DNA of 13,051 nucleotides from Candidatus Rifleibacteriota bacterium (GTDB taxonomy: Bacteria; Muiribacteriota; Ozemobacteria; Ozemobacterales; Ozemobacteraceae): positions 1-13,051 of the forward strand of contig JBNJGH010000096.1 in NCBI GenBank assembly GCA_051747585.1, in the 5' to 3' direction. The notes under the pieces are model-generated. The model did not search any database. It saw only the letters and a list, made by a program, of their open reading frames with translations, and was not told the origin of the DNA. A program made the translations under genes and the position numbers. Below are positions 1,084 to 10,364 of the stretch, in pieces. Each line of letters opens with the position of its first letter. The first letter of the stretch is position 1.

Positions 1084-1983
1084 ATGAAAATTATCAATCA
1101 TGACCAGGGACGGTCGATGCTGAAGGACTTAAATCGTTTCTTTAACCGTGGCAAAGCTCAAGGGGCTGATGCCAAACCTGAGACCGGCGACAGCTTTACA
1201 AAAACTCCTGAAGTTCAGGAAAAACCTGTAAAACCAGTAGAAGGATCTGAAGGAGCCGGTAAAGATCTGAACGTTTCGTTTCAGTTCAATCTTTTCTACG
1301 AGCTTTCACAAAAGGTCGAAAAAAAAATGGGACAAAGCGGCTCACAGAAATTTTCAGAAGTTTCTACCAGTGTTGCAGAAACATTTGAAGGCAGTTTTAA
1401 TCTTAAAATAGATGGTCTGGGTTCATTCTTTAAAAATACCGACAGTGCTCTTAATATTTCTGAAGAAACTACCAATGAATTCTTTGATTCTGTAGAGGGA
1501 CTGGCAGATCTTAGCCCGGAAGCTCTCGAGAATTTTCTGGCTGAAAGCGAAGATTTCTTTGCCGAGCTTGAGGATAAATTTGGTGAAGCCGGTGGCGCGT
1601 TTGATCAGATAAAAGATCAGATGCAGCAGCAGGCAAGCGCATTTTTTTCCGGTGTCAGGGCAATTCGCGGTCAGGAAGGCGGATCTGAAAATCAGATTGA
1701 AACAAATCCCGAGGCTGAAGTAGCGGCGGTTGAAAATTCTGCGGGAGATGTTGATCAGGCACTGGCTGCTCTTAACTCAGAGCAAAGCAAAACCGATTCA
1801 ACTTCTGAATTGATTAAAATGGCTAATAAACCTGACATGATGGTTTCAAAAGAAAAATACCAGGAATTTCTTCAGAGTTTTATAGAATATAGCGAAAGAT
1901 TCAGACAAGAGATGTTCTCGGGGCTTTTAAGCAATAACGGTTCCGACAAAAATACGACCGGTTCGATTCTTTCTCAAGCCTGA
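1084..1983 (+). CDS. Hypothetical acidic alpha-helical protein (299 aa)
   Basis: Long ORF. The strong SD AAGGAGG at 1073-1079 precedes ATG 1084, favouring it over TTG 1069. Stop TGA 1981-1983. E/S/F/D-rich with no signal peptide or TM segment. Confidence 0.85.
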   Translation: MKIINHDQGRSMLKDLNRFFNRGKAQGADAKPETGDSFTKTPEVQEKPVKPVEGSEGAGKDLNVSFQFNLFYELSQKVEKKMGQSGSQKFSEVSTSVAETFEGSFNLKIDGLGSFFKNTDSALNISEETTNEFFDSVEGLADLSPEALENFLAESEDFFAELEDKFGEAGGAFDQIKDQMQQQASAFFSGVRAIRGQEGGSENQIETNPEAEVAAVENSAGDVDQALAALNSEQSKTDSTSELIKMANKPDMMVSKEKYQEFLQSFIEYSERFRQEMFSGLLSNNGSDKNTTGSILSQA

Positions 1984-1988
1984 ACCAA

Positions 1989-2178
1989 GTTGTTATCCGA
2001 TTGTTTGTTGAATCCGTTTCAAGACATTTAGATTGCTTCTTCGCTATGCTCATCGCAATGACGGCTAGGGTTGTCATTGCGGGCAAAGCGAAGCAATCTT
2101 TGATAATCTAAAATTCAGGACATAACAAAGAAATAAAGATGTCTTGAAACTTGCTAATATTGCTAAAGGGGTGTCAAC
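1989..2178. mobile_element. Composite MITE-like element copy 1 (190 bp) containing a REP-like doublet
   Basis: Outer IR GTTGTTATCC 1989-1998 / GGGTGTCAAC 2169-2178. Inner IR GTTTCAAGACAT 2016-2027 / ATGTCTTGAAAC 2139-2150 (perfect 12 bp). REP units 2031-2062 and 2073-2098. Flanking direct repeat CAAGCCTGA 1975-1983 / 2179-2187. Colinear with copies 2 and 3. Confidence 0.75.
2031..2098. repeat. Head-to-head REP-like doublet (GTCATTGCG...CGAAGCAATC type; CGTC/TGTC-tagged)
   Basis: GATTGCTTCTTCGCTATGCTCATCGCAATGAC, a 10-nt spacer, then GTCATTGCGGGCAAAGCGAAGCAATC. Confidence 0.85.
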
Positions 2179-2187
2179 CAAGCCTGA

Positions 2188-2652
2188 TTAGAGGTTTTTC
2201 CAGTATTTTATGGCGTTTTCTCCGTTGTCATAATAGTTAGGTAAAAAGCCGGTTTCGCTATAACCGTTTTTTAGAAACATGGAGCGGGAAGCTATGTTGA
2301 ACTGTCTTACTTCAGCACAGCTTTTCTCCATTCCATGTTGTTTAAAAAGCTTTTCCATTTCGCCAAGCAGTTTCGAACCCAGCCCTCGAGTTTGAATTCG
2401 TGGATCTATGGCGATTTTATATATACGCCCTGACGGGATTTTAAAATTGCGCAAAAGCCCGATTACTTCGCCGGCAATCGTCCCGTCATTGTTTTTTAAT
2501 AAAAAAGTCAGCGAAGTTGGGGATTCTATAAGATGCTTCAGATTTTTTACCGGGAACTGGTCTTCAGGGCGATCGAAGCATTCCAGCTCAAATTTATGCA
2601 ATGCGTTTACTTCTGATGCGTCGGCTTCATGTAATTGTAATTTGTTATTCAT
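2188..2652 (-). CDS. GNAT family N-acetyltransferase, RimI-like
   Basis: Motif A IAIDPRIQTRGLGSKLL (acetyl-CoA binding loop), EVRQFNIAS...F...GY, and C-terminal NYYDNGENA typical of RimI-like GNATs. Confidence 0.88.
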   Translation of the reverse strand: MNNKLQLHEADASEVNALHKFELECFDRPEDQFPVKNLKHLIESPTSLTFLLKNNDGTIAGEVIGLLRNFKIPSGRIYKIAIDPRIQTRGLGSKLLGEMEKLFKQHGMEKSCAEVRQFNIASRSMFLKNGYSETGFLPNYYDNGENAIKYWKNL

Positions 2653-2660
2653 ATTCGCAA

Positions 2661-2689
2661 ATATTATATTTTAGCAAAAGCTACGTCAA
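2661..2689 (-). promoter_or_regulatory. Putative sigma-70 promoter of the GNAT gene
   Basis: On the minus strand, TTGACG (2689-2684) is followed by TATAAT (2668-2663, 15-nt spacer) or TAATAT (2666-2661, 17-nt spacer). No SD before ATG 2652. Confidence 0.45.
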
Positions 2690-2709
2690 CCGATCTTTTA
2701 CAACCACCT

Positions 2710-2911
2710 GTAATTATCCGTTTGTTTTTAGAAACCGTTTTAAGACATTTAGATTGCTTCGCTTTGCTCGCAATGACAGGCCTAAGTTGTCATTGCGAGG
2801 AATTCTGCGAAGCAGAACGACGAAGCAATCTTTGATAATCTAAAATGTAGTTCATAACAAAGAACACAAAAATGTCTTGAAACTTGCTAAGATTGCTAAA
2901 TGGATAATTAC
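2710..2911. mobile_element. Composite MITE-like element copy 2 (202 bp; 2708-2913 if the ends are CWG...CTG)
   Basis: Perfect outer IR GTAATTATCC 2710-2719 / GGATAATTAC 2902-2911. Inner IR 2737-2750 / 2870-2883 (13/14). REP units 2752-2777 and 2789-2830. Direct repeat TTACAACCACC 2698-2708 / 2914-2924. Confidence 0.82.
2752..2830. repeat. Head-to-head REP-like doublet with an extra mini-hairpin in unit 2
   Basis: GATTGCTTCGCTTTGCTCGCAATGAC, an 11-nt spacer, then GTCATTGCGAGGAA-TTCTGCGAAGCAGAA-CGACGAAGCAATC. Confidence 0.85.
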
Positions 2912-2968
2912 TGTTACAACCACCGAGCTTCAGTGGTTAAAGAATTATTCTAAAAGTTAGACAAAACA

Positions 2969-2995
2969 AAAAGCTGCCCGGTAAGGGCAGCTTTT
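2969..2995 (-). terminator. Intrinsic terminator of the 3031-3333 gene (possibly bidirectional)
   Basis: AAAAGCTGCCC-ggtaa-GGGCAGCTTTT. On the minus strand the GC stem is followed by TTTTTGTTTT. Confidence 0.85.
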
Positions 2996-3030
2996 ATAAG
3001 AGAGGAGTTTTATGAGAAAGCTTGAAACTT

Positions 3031-3333
3031 TTATTTACGTACTTTATTTTTCATATTTTTAAGAACTGCTTTGAGAGTGTAGACATCAGCTTTGTGGCCT
3101 TGTATTTTTTCCATGAGTTTCTGGGCTTCGACCTGTGCTTCAGGACCGCCTTCTTCGTTCAGTTTGCGCAGTTCGATATAGGCCAGTCTAATTTCTTCGT
3201 TTAACTGTTTGATTTTCTGACTTACTTCATACATTTCGTGTTTTGAAGCAGCTTGAACGGCTGAGCCGAGCATACTGATGATAAAGATTGTCAGAACCAG
3301 CCAGATTGTTTTTTTTGTTACTGATAATTTCAT
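3031..3333 (-). CDS. Small secreted protein (Sec signal peptide plus two coiled-coil helices)
   Basis: SD GGAGG upstream. N-terminus MKLSVTKK, hydrophobic core, then AVQA|AS cleavage-like site. Mature part is helix-GGP-helix. Has its own promoter motif and terminator. Confidence 0.85.
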   Translation of the reverse strand: MKLSVTKKTIWLVLTIFIISMLGSAVQAASKHEMYEVSQKIKQLNEEIRLAYIELRKLNEEGGPEAQVEAQKLMEKIQGHKADVYTLKAVLKNMKNKVRK

Positions 3334-3363
3334 GTTAGACCTCCGTGTATTTGTTCATAATTT

Positions 3364-3391
3364 ATATCGGAGAGATAACAGAAAAACTTTA
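3364..3391 (-). promoter_or_regulatory. Putative sigma-28 (FliA/SigD) promoter
   Basis: Minus strand TAAAGTTT (3391-3384), N12, TCCGATAT (3371-3364), 30 nt before ATG 3333. Confidence 0.7.
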
Positions 3392-3459
3392 GACAAAAAT
3401 AAATAAATTTAAACTATTTTAAGCATTAACAAACAACAACAAACATTAAAAAGACAGAT

Positions 3460-3674
3460 TAATTCTCTATTTGTTTTTTGTTAAGTCTTTAAAGACACTT
3501 AGATTGCTTTACTTCGGCTCCGCTCAGCACAGGCGCTTCGCTCGCAATGACAGCCCCAAATTGTCATTGCGAGGAGCTTAGCGACGAAGCAATCTTTGAT
3601 ATACTAAATTCTAGTACATTACAAAAAATACAAAAATGTCTTAAAACTACCTGATATCGATAAAGGGAAATAAC
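3460..3674. mobile_element. Composite MITE-like element copy 3 (~215 bp, most diverged; left end uncertain, 3455-3460)
   Basis: Colinear with copy 2. Left arm TAATTCTCTATTTGTTTTT; inner IR 3487-3500 / 3634-3647 (11/14); REP units 3502-3551 and 3563-3594; right end GGGAAATAAC 3665-3674. Degenerate flanking repeat AAAAnnCAGA 3449-3458 / 3678-3687. Confidence 0.7.
3502..3594. repeat. Head-to-head REP-like doublet with a 24-bp nested insertion in unit 1
   Basis: GATTGCTT[TACTTCGGCTCCGCTCAGCACAGG]CGCTTCGCTCGCAATGAC, an 11-nt spacer, then GTCATTGCGAGGAGCTTAGCGACGAAGCAATC. Confidence 0.85.
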
Positions 3675-3682
3675 TGGAAAAT

Positions 3683-4771
3683 TCAGAGTAGAGCGCTTAT
3701 GACGCCTCCGGCGAGCATGCTGTCATCCTGGTAAAATACGGCAGATTGCCCCGGAGAAATAGCATAAGTCGGAGAAAAAAGCTCTACTTGCCATTCTTCG
3801 TTGTTGCTTTCTAATATCTGGCACCGTACCGGTCTGGAATTATACCTGATTTGAACCTCAAACTCACTGCCGACAGGGGGTATGCCAATCAATGAATTTA
3901 ATTTTGTTACTCTGAATTTTGTTCCCATAAGAGATTGGTAAAGGCCCGCATGGATCTCGCGCTTCTCAGGATCTATTTTATATACATAGAGCTTTTGCCC
4001 GTGGCCCCCGCCAAGCCCCTTGCGCTGTCCGATGGTGAAGTGCATGTAACCGTTGTGGTCGCCGATTTTTTCTCCTTCAGGGCCAATGATAGGGCCGGGA
4101 AGAAAGCCGGGATGATCATGGGGCAGATGTTTGCGTAGAAAATCAGTATAGTCGCCATCGGGAACAAAACAAATTTCTTGTGACTCGGGTTTTTTCGCAT
4201 TTGCCAGGCCATGTTTCTCGGCTAAAGCTCGAATTTCTTCTTTTTTGTATTTTCCCACCGGCAGCAGGAGAAACGGCAGAACGTCTCGAGGAACTTCCCA
4301 TAAAAAATAGGTTTGATCCTTTTTGCTGTCTATTCCGCGCTTTAAGATATGATTTCCGGCAGCATCTTCGATATTTCTTGCGTAGTGTCCGGTTGCAAGA
4401 TATTTACAGCCATACATCCGGGCTTTTTTCAATAGATAGGGAATTTTAATAGTGGCATTGCAGCGAACGCAGGGGTTCGGAGTGCGTCCATCTGCATATT
4501 CGTTAACGAAGTCATTGATTACTTCATTTTGAAAGGTTTCAGATACATCTAATACTGTGTGTGGAATACCCAGCTTAGCCGCTACCGCACGGGCTGCTGC
4601 TACTCCTTCGAGCCCACAGCAGGACTTAGGGCCGCTTTCTTCCTGGTAGCAAAAAGTTTTTAGAGTAGCTGCCATTACATCATAGCCCTGTTCTTTTAGC
4701 AGAACAGCTGCAACCGAAGAGTCTACTCCGCCTGAGAGGGCTACCATTACTTTTTCTTTTTCCTGATTCAT
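3683..4771 (-). CDS. mnmA: tRNA 2-thiouridine(34) synthase MnmA
   Basis: PP-loop SGGVDS, TPNPCVRCN, ATGHYAR, KDQTYF, ESQEICF, TIGQRKG, PGQSAVFY; SD AGGAG upstream. Confidence 0.97.
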   Translation of the reverse strand: MNQEKEKVMVALSGGVDSSVAAVLLKEQGYDVMAATLKTFCYQEESGPKSCCGLEGVAAARAVAAKLGIPHTVLDVSETFQNEVINDFVNEYADGRTPNPCVRCNATIKIPYLLKKARMYGCKYLATGHYARNIEDAAGNHILKRGIDSKKDQTYFLWEVPRDVLPFLLLPVGKYKKEEIRALAEKHGLANAKKPESQEICFVPDGDYTDFLRKHLPHDHPGFLPGPIIGPEGEKIGDHNGYMHFTIGQRKGLGGGHGQKLYVYKIDPEKREIHAGLYQSLMGTKFRVTKLNSLIGIPPVGSEFEVQIRYNSRPVRCQILESNNEEWQVELFSPTYAISPGQSAVFYQDDSMLAGGVISALL

Positions 4772-8752: not shown

Positions 8753-9748
8753 ATGTTTAACATGTTAAAATCCAAAAAAATTTGGGGCTTTGTCGTCTCA
8801 ATATTTTTTCTCTGGCTTGCTCTAAGAAAAGTAGACTGGAGCAGTATCCCGGATATTTTAAGCAAAATTGATTATTCTTTTATTTTGCTGATGTGCTTTA
8901 CTTACACCCTCGAGCACCTTGCCCGTGCCTATAGATGGCGGGCAATTCTTCCGGGAAAATATTTGAAAATTAAATTCGCTTATTTCGGTATTGTGTTGGG
9001 CTATCTTTTTAATAATTTGCTGCCCGCACGTGCCGGCGAGTTCGTTCGTTCATTTTATCTTAAGAAAAAAAAGACCGCTCCGGCTTCAGAAATTTTTGGC
9101 TCTGTAGTATTCGAAAGGTTCCTCGATGGCCTGGTAATAATTTCTCTGATTGTTTTTTCGTTGAACTATTTCCCATCTACAGATCTGGTTAAGCAGGCGG
9201 GAGTATCTGCTGTTATTTTTTATCTGGTTATTCTATTTGTAATAATTCTGCTTCAGTTTAAAAGAAATCTGGTGCTTAAGTTTACCAGAAAAATTTTCTC
9301 GACTTTTCCATCCAAAGTCGCTGAATTTTTGCACGATTCTGAAGAATCCTTTATCAATGGTCTCGGGTTGATTGCCCGCCCGAAAAAATTTTTCAGGGCT
9401 TTGTTGCTTTCTATTGTTTCGTGGGCCCTTTCGATCCTTACCATGTATATTTGTTTGCAGATGTTCAACCTGGATATGGGAGTGGTCGAAGCCATTCTTT
9501 TGATATGTATTTTATCTATTGGTTCAATGATTCCTACTTCCCCGGGAATGATTGGAATTTATGAATACTGTTGTGTGCTGGCTTTGCATGATATCCTTGG
9601 ACGGAGCGAAGAAGTTGCCGTTATGTTTGGGCTGGTTTCGCATACTATAGGTTACTTTTATGTTTTAGTTGTTGGCTTTATTATTCTTGGCCTGGAAAAC
9701 CTGAGTGTTCACGATCTGAGCCATGCTCAAGAAGAAGTTCAAACTTAA
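8753..9748 (+). CDS. Lysylphosphatidylglycerol synthase transmembrane-domain (UPF0104/YbhN-type flippase-like) protein
   Basis: RAYRW, NNLLPARAGEFVR, ERFLDG, IPTSPGMIGIYE; about eight TM segments. The start could be 8753 or 8762. Confidence 0.9.
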   Translation: MFNMLKSKKIWGFVVSIFFLWLALRKVDWSSIPDILSKIDYSFILLMCFTYTLEHLARAYRWRAILPGKYLKIKFAYFGIVLGYLFNNLLPARAGEFVRSFYLKKKKTAPASEIFGSVVFERFLDGLVIISLIVFSLNYFPSTDLVKQAGVSAVIFYLVILFVIILLQFKRNLVLKFTRKIFSTFPSKVAEFLHDSEESFINGLGLIARPKKFFRALLLSIVSWALSILTMYICLQMFNLDMGVVEAILLICILSIGSMIPTSPGMIGIYEYCCVLALHDILGRSEEVAVMFGLVSHTIGYFYVLVVGFIILGLENLSVHDLSHAQEEVQT

Positions 9749-9763
9749 AGTAAAAACGAAAGT

Positions 9764-9791
9764 TAAGTTTTGTCTTTTTCTTTGCCGATAA
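9764..9791 (+). promoter_or_regulatory. Putative sigma-28 (FliA/SigD) promoter
   Basis: TAAGTTTT 9764-9771, N12, GCCGATAA 9784-9791, followed by SD AAGGAGG 9806-9812 and ATG 9819. Confidence 0.68.
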
Positions 9792-9818: not shown

Positions 9819-10364
9819 ATGAACAAACAAAAACAGAAAGGGAAAACGAAAACGCAATTTGGTCTTTTTCTCTTTTTCGTGGTCGGACTTTTTGCCCTCC
9901 AAATTGCTTTTGCTTTCACCCTTCATGGAGACATCGGTCCGCAGACTGATGCTGTGCCCAGCATTGAAAAACCTGTTTCTCCTGTTCTTGTCGGCAGGAT
10001 CGACAGTCTGGTCAGTAATGCCCAAAAAACGATTGTTTCAAATAAAGTGGCACCGGAAGGAGCTTTTGCCCCTGCAAGCAAAAAAATGACATCAAAAGTC
10101 ATGTCTTTTGCCAGGATCGATACCGAACCAGATCCTGAAGCCGGCGAAACCGTGGTGAGAAAAACTGAAAAAAGTAGATTCTATAGCTATATTATCAGGC
10201 GCGGAGATACGTTGCAGAAAATTTCCCGCAAATTATACGGCAGCAGAGATATGGTTCAGTCTCTTGTAAGACTTAACAGAATAAAAAATGAAAAAGCTTT
10301 GCAGCTTGGCAGCTCTTTGTATATTCCGCGAGCGGGTTTGCTCAAGACAATAAAGGTGCTCTAA
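9819..10364 (+). CDS. Membrane-anchored or secreted LysM peptidoglycan-binding protein
   Basis: Strong SD, basic N-terminus plus hydrophobic helix, and a C-terminal LysM domain YIIRRGDTLQKISRKLYG...LNRIKNEKALQLGSSLYIP. Confidence 0.92.
   Translation: MNKQKQKGKTKTQFGLFLFFVVGLFALQIAFAFTLHGDIGPQTDAVPSIEKPVSPVLVGRIDSLVSNAQKTIVSNKVAPEGAFAPASKKMTSKVMSFARIDTEPDPEAGETVVRKTEKSRFYSYIIRRGDTLQKISRKLYGSRDMVQSLVRLNRIKNEKALQLGSSLYIPRAGLLKTIKVL

What the first reader, a model, noticed from the sequence alone, without database searches (positions are those of the whole stretch)
1989..3674. Three copies of a nested non-coding element: outer IR, inner IR, REP doublet, nested mini-hairpins
Seen: three consecutive intergenic regions each hold a colinear, same-orientation element (1989-2178, 2710-2911, ~3460-3674). 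The layout is fixed: a 10-bp outer IR; an inner IR GTTTYAAGACAT...ATGTCTTRAAAC; a central head-to-head GTCATTGCG...CGAAGCAATC doublet; and a conserved 40-41 nt AT-rich right arm (TTTGATAATCTAAAAT...ACAAA). Length differences arise almost entirely inside the REP loops. Established: CGTC/TGTC-tagged REPs and TIR-bounded MITEs are each known. Inference: this is a non-autonomous mobile element or structured RNA that carries a REP doublet as cargo. I do not recognise the carrier, and no transposase lies in the window.
Basis: partly seen in the sequence, partly recalled or inferred. Interest (0 to 1): 0.8.

Follow-up and report, generated by a model that had tools for sequence, protein, structure and literature searches.

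The report
Promoter-seeking mini-transposon carrying REP hairpins
The three repeats are copies of a small gene-less jumping element, found at about 100 places in this genome, that carries a pair of REP hairpins and often sits in one orientation exactly 17-18 bases upstream of a promoter's -35 box, likely because the transposase family that moves it is guided by RNA polymerase to spots where it breaks no gene.

Summary
The element is real. The mnmA-orf100 site is empty in 5 of 5 congeners. Its ends match a 1,773-bp insertion sequence in a relative, whose DDE transposase has homologues annotated ISNCY; no cognate transposase was found in this draft genome. The cargo is a CGTC-type REP pair (tags inside) that flips and grows. 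The unexpected result is targeting. One end faces a sigma70-like -35 box 17-18 nt away (29 of 73 flanks against 3 of 66 at the other end). A sister MITE and full-length elements from several phyla show the same (TTG at offset 17 in 19 of 45 right ends). Such targeting is published for Mutator-like TnGBS/ISLre2/ISKra4 elements; my searches did not find it for this clade. REP-carrying MITEs are published (QMITE2), and this scan has seen REP cargo and promoter targeting in other families and genomes. Guidance by RNA polymerase is inferred, not shown.

The parts
1987..2180 (+). MITE copy 1, degenerate ends, REP cassette reversed, between convergent genes; an exception to the promoter rule
   Evidence: absent from the same gene gap in 3 of 3 congeners that keep the adjacency
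1977..1986 (+). left copy of a degenerate 10-bp target duplication of copy 1 (right copy 2181-2190, 7 of 10); the two copies hold the stop codons of the flanking genes
2030..2099 (.). CGTC/TGTC-type REP pair of copy 1, tags inside
2708..2913 (+). MITE copy 2, complete; 16-bp terminal repeats at 2708-2723 and 2898-2913
   Evidence: contigs of a related strain diverge into unrelated flanks at 2710 and 2913
2698..2707 (+). left copy of a perfect 10-bp target duplication (right copy 2914-2923)
2737..2750 (+). inner 14-bp inverted repeat, left (partner 2870-2883); aligns with the second conserved block of the IS ends
2751..2831 (.). REP pair of copy 2 with an 11-nt central spacer
2832..2869 (+). 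AT-rich internal arm; resembles the T-rich stretch that follows the inner block at IS ends
2661..2689 (-). predicted sigma70-type promoter of the GNAT gene; its -35 box starts 18 nt outside the end of copy 2 (8 nt beyond the 10-bp duplication)
   Evidence: consensus match only
3457..3676 (+). MITE copy 3, older, no clear target duplication; a weak -35/-10 match starts 17 nt outside its left end
   Evidence: site empty in 5 of 5 congeners
3501..3595 (.). REP pair of copy 3 with an extra hairpin module in the first loop
1069..1983 (+). flanking gene, 304 aa, no family above cut-off; conserved in congeners
2188..2652 (-). flanking gene, RimI-like GNAT acetyltransferase
3031..3333 (-). flanking gene, 100 aa, no family above cut-off; conserved in 5 of 5 congeners
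3683..4771 (-). flanking gene mnmA (tRNA 2-thiouridine synthase)

Best explanation
This is a MITE with 16-bp terminal repeats and 9-10-bp target duplications, likely moved in trans by an ISNCY-type DDE transposase that inserts it in a fixed orientation 17-18 nt upstream of sigma70-like -35 boxes, probably by recognising promoter-bound RNA polymerase, with a REP pair riding as passive cargo. Shown: the copies, the ends, the duplications, an empty site, the matching autonomous element in a relative, and the fixed oriented distance to predicted promoters. Inferred: (a) a transposase supplied in trans binds the bipartite ends (16-bp tip plus the 14-bp inner block); (b) the promoter-proximal strand transfer is fixed 8 bp upstream of the -35 box while the distal one slips by a base, giving 9- or 10-bp duplications; (c) RNA polymerase holoenzyme, or the DNA shape it imposes, positions the transpososome (about 60% likely); (d) an ancestral MITE picked up the REP pair once and amplified it; (e) later flips and growth of the core are by-products of nested inverted repeats (template switching or recombination).
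For: Target duplications within 2 mismatches in 37 of 50 paired copies, shuffled mean 0.32, max 4; peaks only at 9 and 10 bp. Empty site: mnmA-orf100 gap 112-120 bp in 5 of 5 congeners against 349 bp here, and the alignment removes the element. Autonomous partner: 1,773-bp element with a near-identical tip, a perfect 9-bp duplication and a 485-aa DDE_Tnp_1 protein. Asp178, Asp267 and Glu387 are invariant in 77 homologues. Homologues annotated ISNCY share the tip, one with a 10-bp duplication. Of 47 full elements with both ends, 25 have a 9-bp duplication. Orientation: in gaps between co-directional genes the left arm faces the downstream start in 19 of 21 (p=2e-4). A -35/-10 match starts at offset 17 or 18 in 29 of 73 left flanks, 3 of 66 right flanks, other offsets mean 1.3, max 5. 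Offset follows duplication length: 9 bp gives 17 in 7 of 9, 10 bp gives 18 in 8 of 9 (Fisher p=0.015). A -10 box lies at the fixed place even when TTG is absent (12 of 41, background 2.3; sister MITE 27 of 52, background 3.4), so the target is the promoter and not a TTG word. Sister MITE: offset 16 in 48 of 106 at one end, 3 of 91 at the other. Full elements from several phyla: TTG at offset 17 in 19 of 45 right ends and 7 of 47 left ends, background under 1. 162 of 226 REP units in the genome abut a MITE arm.
Against: No cognate transposase in this 93.6% complete draft: only a 25%-identical homologue, around which no inverted ends of this type were found. Promoters are consensus predictions; no transcription starts were mapped. 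44 of 73 left flanks lack the strict match, including copy 1, and most cyanobacterial elements show none. 13 of 50 copies lack a recognisable duplication. A related strain carries all three copies, so no empty allele was seen within the species. Two exact-pattern scans found no copy outside this genome. Kin elements are not independent. No test distinguishes protein contact from DNA-shape readout.
Confidence: 0.85

Rival explanations
1. An ordinary MITE that inserts at random into AT-rich DNA; the position near promoters reflects survival of harmless insertions only.
For: Copies are intergenic and keep clear of start codons, as purifying selection predicts; over half of the left flanks show no promoter at the fixed offset.
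Against: Selection does not give single-base precision, a one-sided peak, a shift of one base with duplication length, or the same offset in full elements of other phyla.
Confidence: 0.07
2. The arms are a palindromic target into which REP pairs insert independently, driven by an Ssn or RAYT nuclease, as suggested for REP dimers in long palindromes by Di Nocera.
For: The REP is widespread while the arms are lineage-specific. Four REP-less 57-58-nt forms exist. About 64 REP-like units lie outside the arms. A decayed Ssn-like gene flanked by CGTC-type hairpins lies in one relative.
Against: Duplications flank the arms, not the REP. The REP junctions are constant across copies. The REP-less forms also lack the inner blocks and the AT arm and join at a short shared word, as deletions would. 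No Ssn-like gene was found in this genome, and the partial Y1 transposase gene has no such REP in the stretch read.
Confidence: 0.05
3. A conserved structured RNA or regulatory leader kept for a function at each locus.
For: Strong predicted folding; fixed position relative to promoters; one RNA-library contig covers part of copy 1 (not proof of transcription); slight within-copy concordance of the inner repeat (p=0.019).
Against: No Rfam family; the element lies upstream of the promoter, outside the transcript it would lead; absent in congeners; outer stem shows no within-copy concordance (p=0.66); parts invert freely.
Confidence: 0.03

Closest known systems
Prokaryotic type II MITEs (Minnick 2024, PMC10969869; first part and term passages read)
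   Same: Under 500 bp, terminal inverted repeats, direct repeats that decay with age, AT-rich, intergenic, stable hairpin, similarity to the IS confined to the ends.
   Different: Partner is an ISNCY-annotated group (the review has 0 occurrences of ISNCY); oriented fixed-distance promoter targeting; three nested invertible layers.
QMITE2 of Coxiella burnetii (PMC5896051; passages read)
   Same: About 190-bp MITE with variable direct repeats that contains a REP.
   Different: QMITE2 holds a GTAG REP and lies mainly in 3' untranslated regions; this one holds a CGTC-type pair and faces promoters.
TnGBS, ISLre2 and ISKra4 elements, p-MULT 3/4 (Guerillot 2014, PMC3942029; passages read)
   Same: Oriented insertion 15-17 bp upstream of -35 boxes with the right end next to the promoter; RNA polymerase contact proposed.
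   Different: Those are Mutator-like transposases. This one hits DDE_Tnp_1 and, weakly, IS4-type models, and no Mutator-type model, so the habit likely arose independently.
CGTC-tagged REPs / Ssn-related motifs (Di Nocera 2013, PMC3733652, one part and passages read; Chenal 2025, PMC11893778, two parts and passages read)
   Same: TGTC tag, short stem-loop and tail; pairs; REP dimers inside long palindromes were noted in two species.
   Different: Tags inside (rare type); no ssn gene found here; 72% of units ride in a DDE-type MITE, which gives these 'transposase-less' repeats a route to spread.
ISNCY ISMae2 group and IS1548 (ISAs1 family) - recalled, not read
   Same: From memory: ISMae2-group ends begin CAG with 9-bp repeats; IS1548 makes 10-bp repeats and was reported near promoters.
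   Different: Neither source was held (only the citation was seen), so subgroup membership and any prior report of promoter targeting in this clade are unchecked.

Membership tests
MITE | Terminal inverted repeats, under 500 bp, no coding capacity | tested here: met
   16-bp tips, 188-420 bp; no conserved ORF within the copies
MITE | Target-site duplication | tested here: met
   37 of 50 within 2 mismatches at 9 or 10 bp; null mean 0.32
MITE | Dispersed multicopy with empty orthologous sites | tested here: met
   106 loci; empty in 5 of 5 and 3 of 3 congeners
MITE | Autonomous IS with the same ends | tested here: met
   1,773-bp IS in relative G006; not found in G000 itself
MITE | Demonstrated mobilisation in trans | not testable with these tools
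   needs a transposition assay
ISNCY (ISMae2-like) IS group | Transposase homology, shared tip and 9-10-bp duplication with ISNCY-annotated elements | tested here: met
   about 32% identity to ISNCY-annotated proteins; shared tip; 10-bp duplication in one
ISNCY (ISMae2-like) IS group | Curated family model or ISfinder subgroup match | tested here: inconclusive
   no NCBIfam model reaches its cut-off; ISfinder not available; subgroup name recalled
p-MULT 3/4 (TnGBS, ISLre2, ISKra4) | Mutator-like transposase | tested here: not met
   only DDE_Tnp_1, DDE_Tnp_1_assoc and weak IS4-type hits
p-MULT 3/4 (TnGBS, ISLre2, ISKra4) | Oriented insertion about 16 bp upstream of -35 boxes, right end towards the promoter | tested here: met
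   (works like them, is not a member)
CGTC REP / Ssn-related motif | CGTC/TGTC tag, stem-loop, short tail | tested here: met
   226 units, 185 preceded by T, control 1
CGTC REP / Ssn-related motif | Associated ssn nuclease gene | tested here: not met
   two GIY-YIG hits only, neither REP-flanked nor Ssn-like; draft genome
REPIN-RAYT | REP doublet with tags outside as the mobile unit, plus a REP-flanked RAYT gene | tested here: not met
   tags inside in 70 of 74 adjacent pairs; duplications lie outside the arms; one partial Y1 gene without this REP in the stretch read
Rfam structured RNA | Covariance-model match at gathering score | tested here: not met
   7 weak matches, none over a copy's core or near its gathering score

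The most novel reading that the evidence does not exclude
An IS4-like/ISNCY transposase clade spread over several bacterial phyla has independently evolved RNA-polymerase-guided, base-precise insertion just upstream of sigma70 promoters. Its MITEs are the main vehicle that multiplies CGTC-type REP hairpins in this lineage, and their footprints could map promoters in uncultured bacteria.
Probability: 0.5. Interest if true: 0.72.

Novelty: new variant of a known kind. Interest (0 to 1): 0.55.

Why it matters
Promoter-guided insertion in bacteria was described as a peculiarity of Mutator-like transposases (PMC3942029). A second, unrelated DDE clade with the same geometry would make it a convergent safe-site strategy and gives a small single-gene system in which to test contact with RNA polymerase. 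The one-base coupling of offset to duplication length pins one strand-transfer position 8 bp from the -35 box. The element also offers a concrete answer, for this genome, to how CGTC REPs spread without a dedicated transposase (left open in PMC3733652): 162 of 226 units hitchhike in the MITE. The composite MITE-plus-REP structure itself is ordinary.

Tried and rejected
Rfam: nothing. Exact-pattern scans of the genome and metagenome collections: 0 hits each. Other transposases in this genome do not carry these tips: a 434-aa DDE gene on C47, a broken element on C194, a Y1 fragment on C196 and the C307 element. A resemblance of the inner repeat to the C194 ends was dropped because duplications flank the outer tips. 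Paralogous empty-site search: 49 queries gave one candidate on another contig and three self-overlaps, not informative. Read laying: no joint skips a single copy; strain X1 has all three; RNA contigs cannot show transcription. Local duplication or hot spot: rejected. Structure prediction of transposase with the sigma C-terminus and alpha-CTD of the same genome: score 0.02, no verdict, no evidence either way. PDB sequence search: nothing. The base-pair covariation count was not completed. Literature: 10 searches (most seen as listings only) found no description of this family or of promoter targeting by ISNCY elements. The IS classification review and the IS1548 target paper were not held, and supplements were not read, so a prior report cannot be excluded. 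Rows dropped: 2 of 52 paired copies at contig ends; duplicate or N-containing flanks (75 to 73); 33 of 80 loci without two recognisable ends; one orientation label (C25) was a script artefact corrected.

Full report
OBSERVATION. The three elements are present, colinear and in the same orientation. Each folds much better than shuffles. Rfam has no match near a gathering score. The host appears to be a Riflebacteria bacterium: a family-level relative's protein is so labelled and earlier scan notes say the same.

A DISPERSED FAMILY. BLAST and profile searches of the 4.1-Mb draft (330 contigs) show many copies: 106 loci hold an arm and 52 have both tips. The window copies are 69-78% alike, and each is closer to copies on other contigs. 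Neighbouring pairs are no more frequent than chance. Among 30 relatives only the REP part matched, in 4 genomes.

IT IS A MITE. Flanks are duplicated over 9 or 10 bp: 37 of 50 copies within two mismatches, shuffled mean 0.32. Copy 2 has a perfect 10-bp duplication, copy 1 a 7-of-10 one, copy 3 none clear. The mnmA-orf100 gap is 349 bp here and 112-120 bp in 5 of 5 congeners, and the alignment removes the element. The gap of copy 1 lacks it in 3 of 3 congeners with that gene order. The gene order around copy 2 is not conserved, so that site could not be tested. A related strain in public reads carries all three copies.

THE LIKELY DRIVER. The tip pattern occurs in several family-level relatives. 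In G006 two tips bound a 1,773-bp element with a perfect 9-bp duplication and a 485-aa protein. It hits DDE_Tnp_1 and DDE_Tnp_1_assoc and only weakly IS4-type models. A candidate DDE triad is invariant in 77 homologues. Homologues on cyanobacterial plasmids are annotated ISNCY and share the tip. The subgroup name ISMae2 is recalled and unverified. This genome holds only a 25%-identical homologue without these ends; the driver is unassembled or lost.

THE CARGO. The core is a pair of TGTC-tagged REPs of the CGTC class (PMC3733652), the class bound by Ssn nucleases (PMC11893778). Tags point inward in 70 of 74 adjacent pairs, the rare arrangement. Of 226 units, 162 abut an arm (a few of the other 64 are loose matches). 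No ssn gene was found here; a decayed one flanked by such hairpins exists in G018. The cassette lies one way in 28 and the other way in 17 of 48 full copies, and the spacer alone is flipped in 2. The whole inner segment is inverted at 5 loci. Loops and spacer grow by further hairpin modules. Four REP-less short forms look like deletions. MITEs with the same tips in relatives carry other cargo or none, and one full IS holds a REP pair before its gene. I read the cargo as a passenger.

THE UNEXPECTED PART: PROMOTER TARGETING. In gaps between co-directional genes the left arm faces the downstream start in 19 of 21 copies. A sigma70-like -35/-10 pair starts 17 or 18 nt outside the left tip in 29 of 73 flanks, against 3 of 66 right flanks and a mean of 1.3 at other offsets. 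The offset tracks the duplication, 17 with 9 bp and 18 with 10 bp (p=0.015), so 8 bp always separate the duplication from the -35 box. A -10 box sits at the fixed place even without TTG (12 of 41). A sister MITE in this genome shows offset 16 in 48 of 106 flanks at one end and 3 of 91 at the other. In 47 full elements from several phyla, TTG lies at offset 17 in 19 of 45 right-end and 7 of 47 left-end flanks; most cyanobacterial copies show no such signal. In the window, copy 2 fits exactly, copy 3 weakly and copy 1 not at all. Promoters are predictions and kin elements are not independent.

MECHANISM. Shown: ends, duplications, an empty site, a matching IS, fixed oriented spacing. Inferred: transposition in trans; asymmetric use of the two ends; positioning by promoter-bound RNA polymerase, as proposed for TnGBS (PMC3942029); passive flipping of the core between nested inverted repeats. 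Selection alone cannot explain base precision. A structured RNA is unlikely.

COMPARISON AND VERDICT. It is a member of the MITEs (PMC10969869). REP-containing MITEs are known (QMITE2), and this scan noted MITE-plus-REP composites of IS1380, IS4 and ISAs1 type elsewhere (unchecked). It works like p-MULT 3/4 elements but is not one. Ten literature searches found no report of this targeting for ISNCY elements, but two relevant papers were not held, and I recall IS1548 (ISAs1) being described near promoters. The scan has also noted promoter targeting in other families (unchecked). New variant of a known kind; interest 0.55.

Noticed in passing
G000, e.g. C3:38335-38705, C11:27088-27456: A second abundant MITE family (about 370 bp, 46 paired copies, 26 with 9-bp duplications) has tips like those of a full IS in G041 and targets -35 boxes at offset 16. 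Four copies of the studied MITE sit in or beside its tips, i.e. the families stack at the same promoter edges.
   Followed up: partly
G000, e.g. C3:5424-5625, C199:75-231: A third palindromic repeat family of about 150-200 bp with short terminal inverted repeats, often next to another short repeat and sometimes nested in the studied MITE's right tip (C80, C3).
   Followed up: no
L038:1229-1420 (G018:C349): A full IS of the same transposase group carries a CGTC REP pair, tags outside, between its left end and its gene.
   Followed up: partly
L064:1417-1800 and L068 (G018): Decayed Ssn-like GIY-YIG genes flanked by CGTC-type hairpins of another sequence type.
   Followed up: partly
L044 (G000:C307:183-2629): Two-gene element: a 308-aa open frame followed by a DDE_Tnp_1_assoc transposase, 25% identical to the G006 enzyme.
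   Followed up: partly
window 3375-3395 and about 1008-1035: A motif like a sigma28 promoter (consensus recalled) upstream of orf100 is conserved in 5 of 5 congeners; a similar one precedes the 304-aa gene.
   Followed up: no
window 2440-2521: In run X1 the GNAT gene has a dense block of substitutions within otherwise close sequence, suggesting a recombined tract.
   Followed up: no
G000:C194:947-2479: A frameshifted DDE element with its own inverted ends sits inside a GTAG-like palindrome, with a lone CGTC-type REP nearby.
   Followed up: no
window 9741-9781 / 9831-9871 and 9838-9923: A 41-nt two-copy direct repeat and a 25-nt inverted repeat at the start of a 181-aa gene.
   Followed up: no
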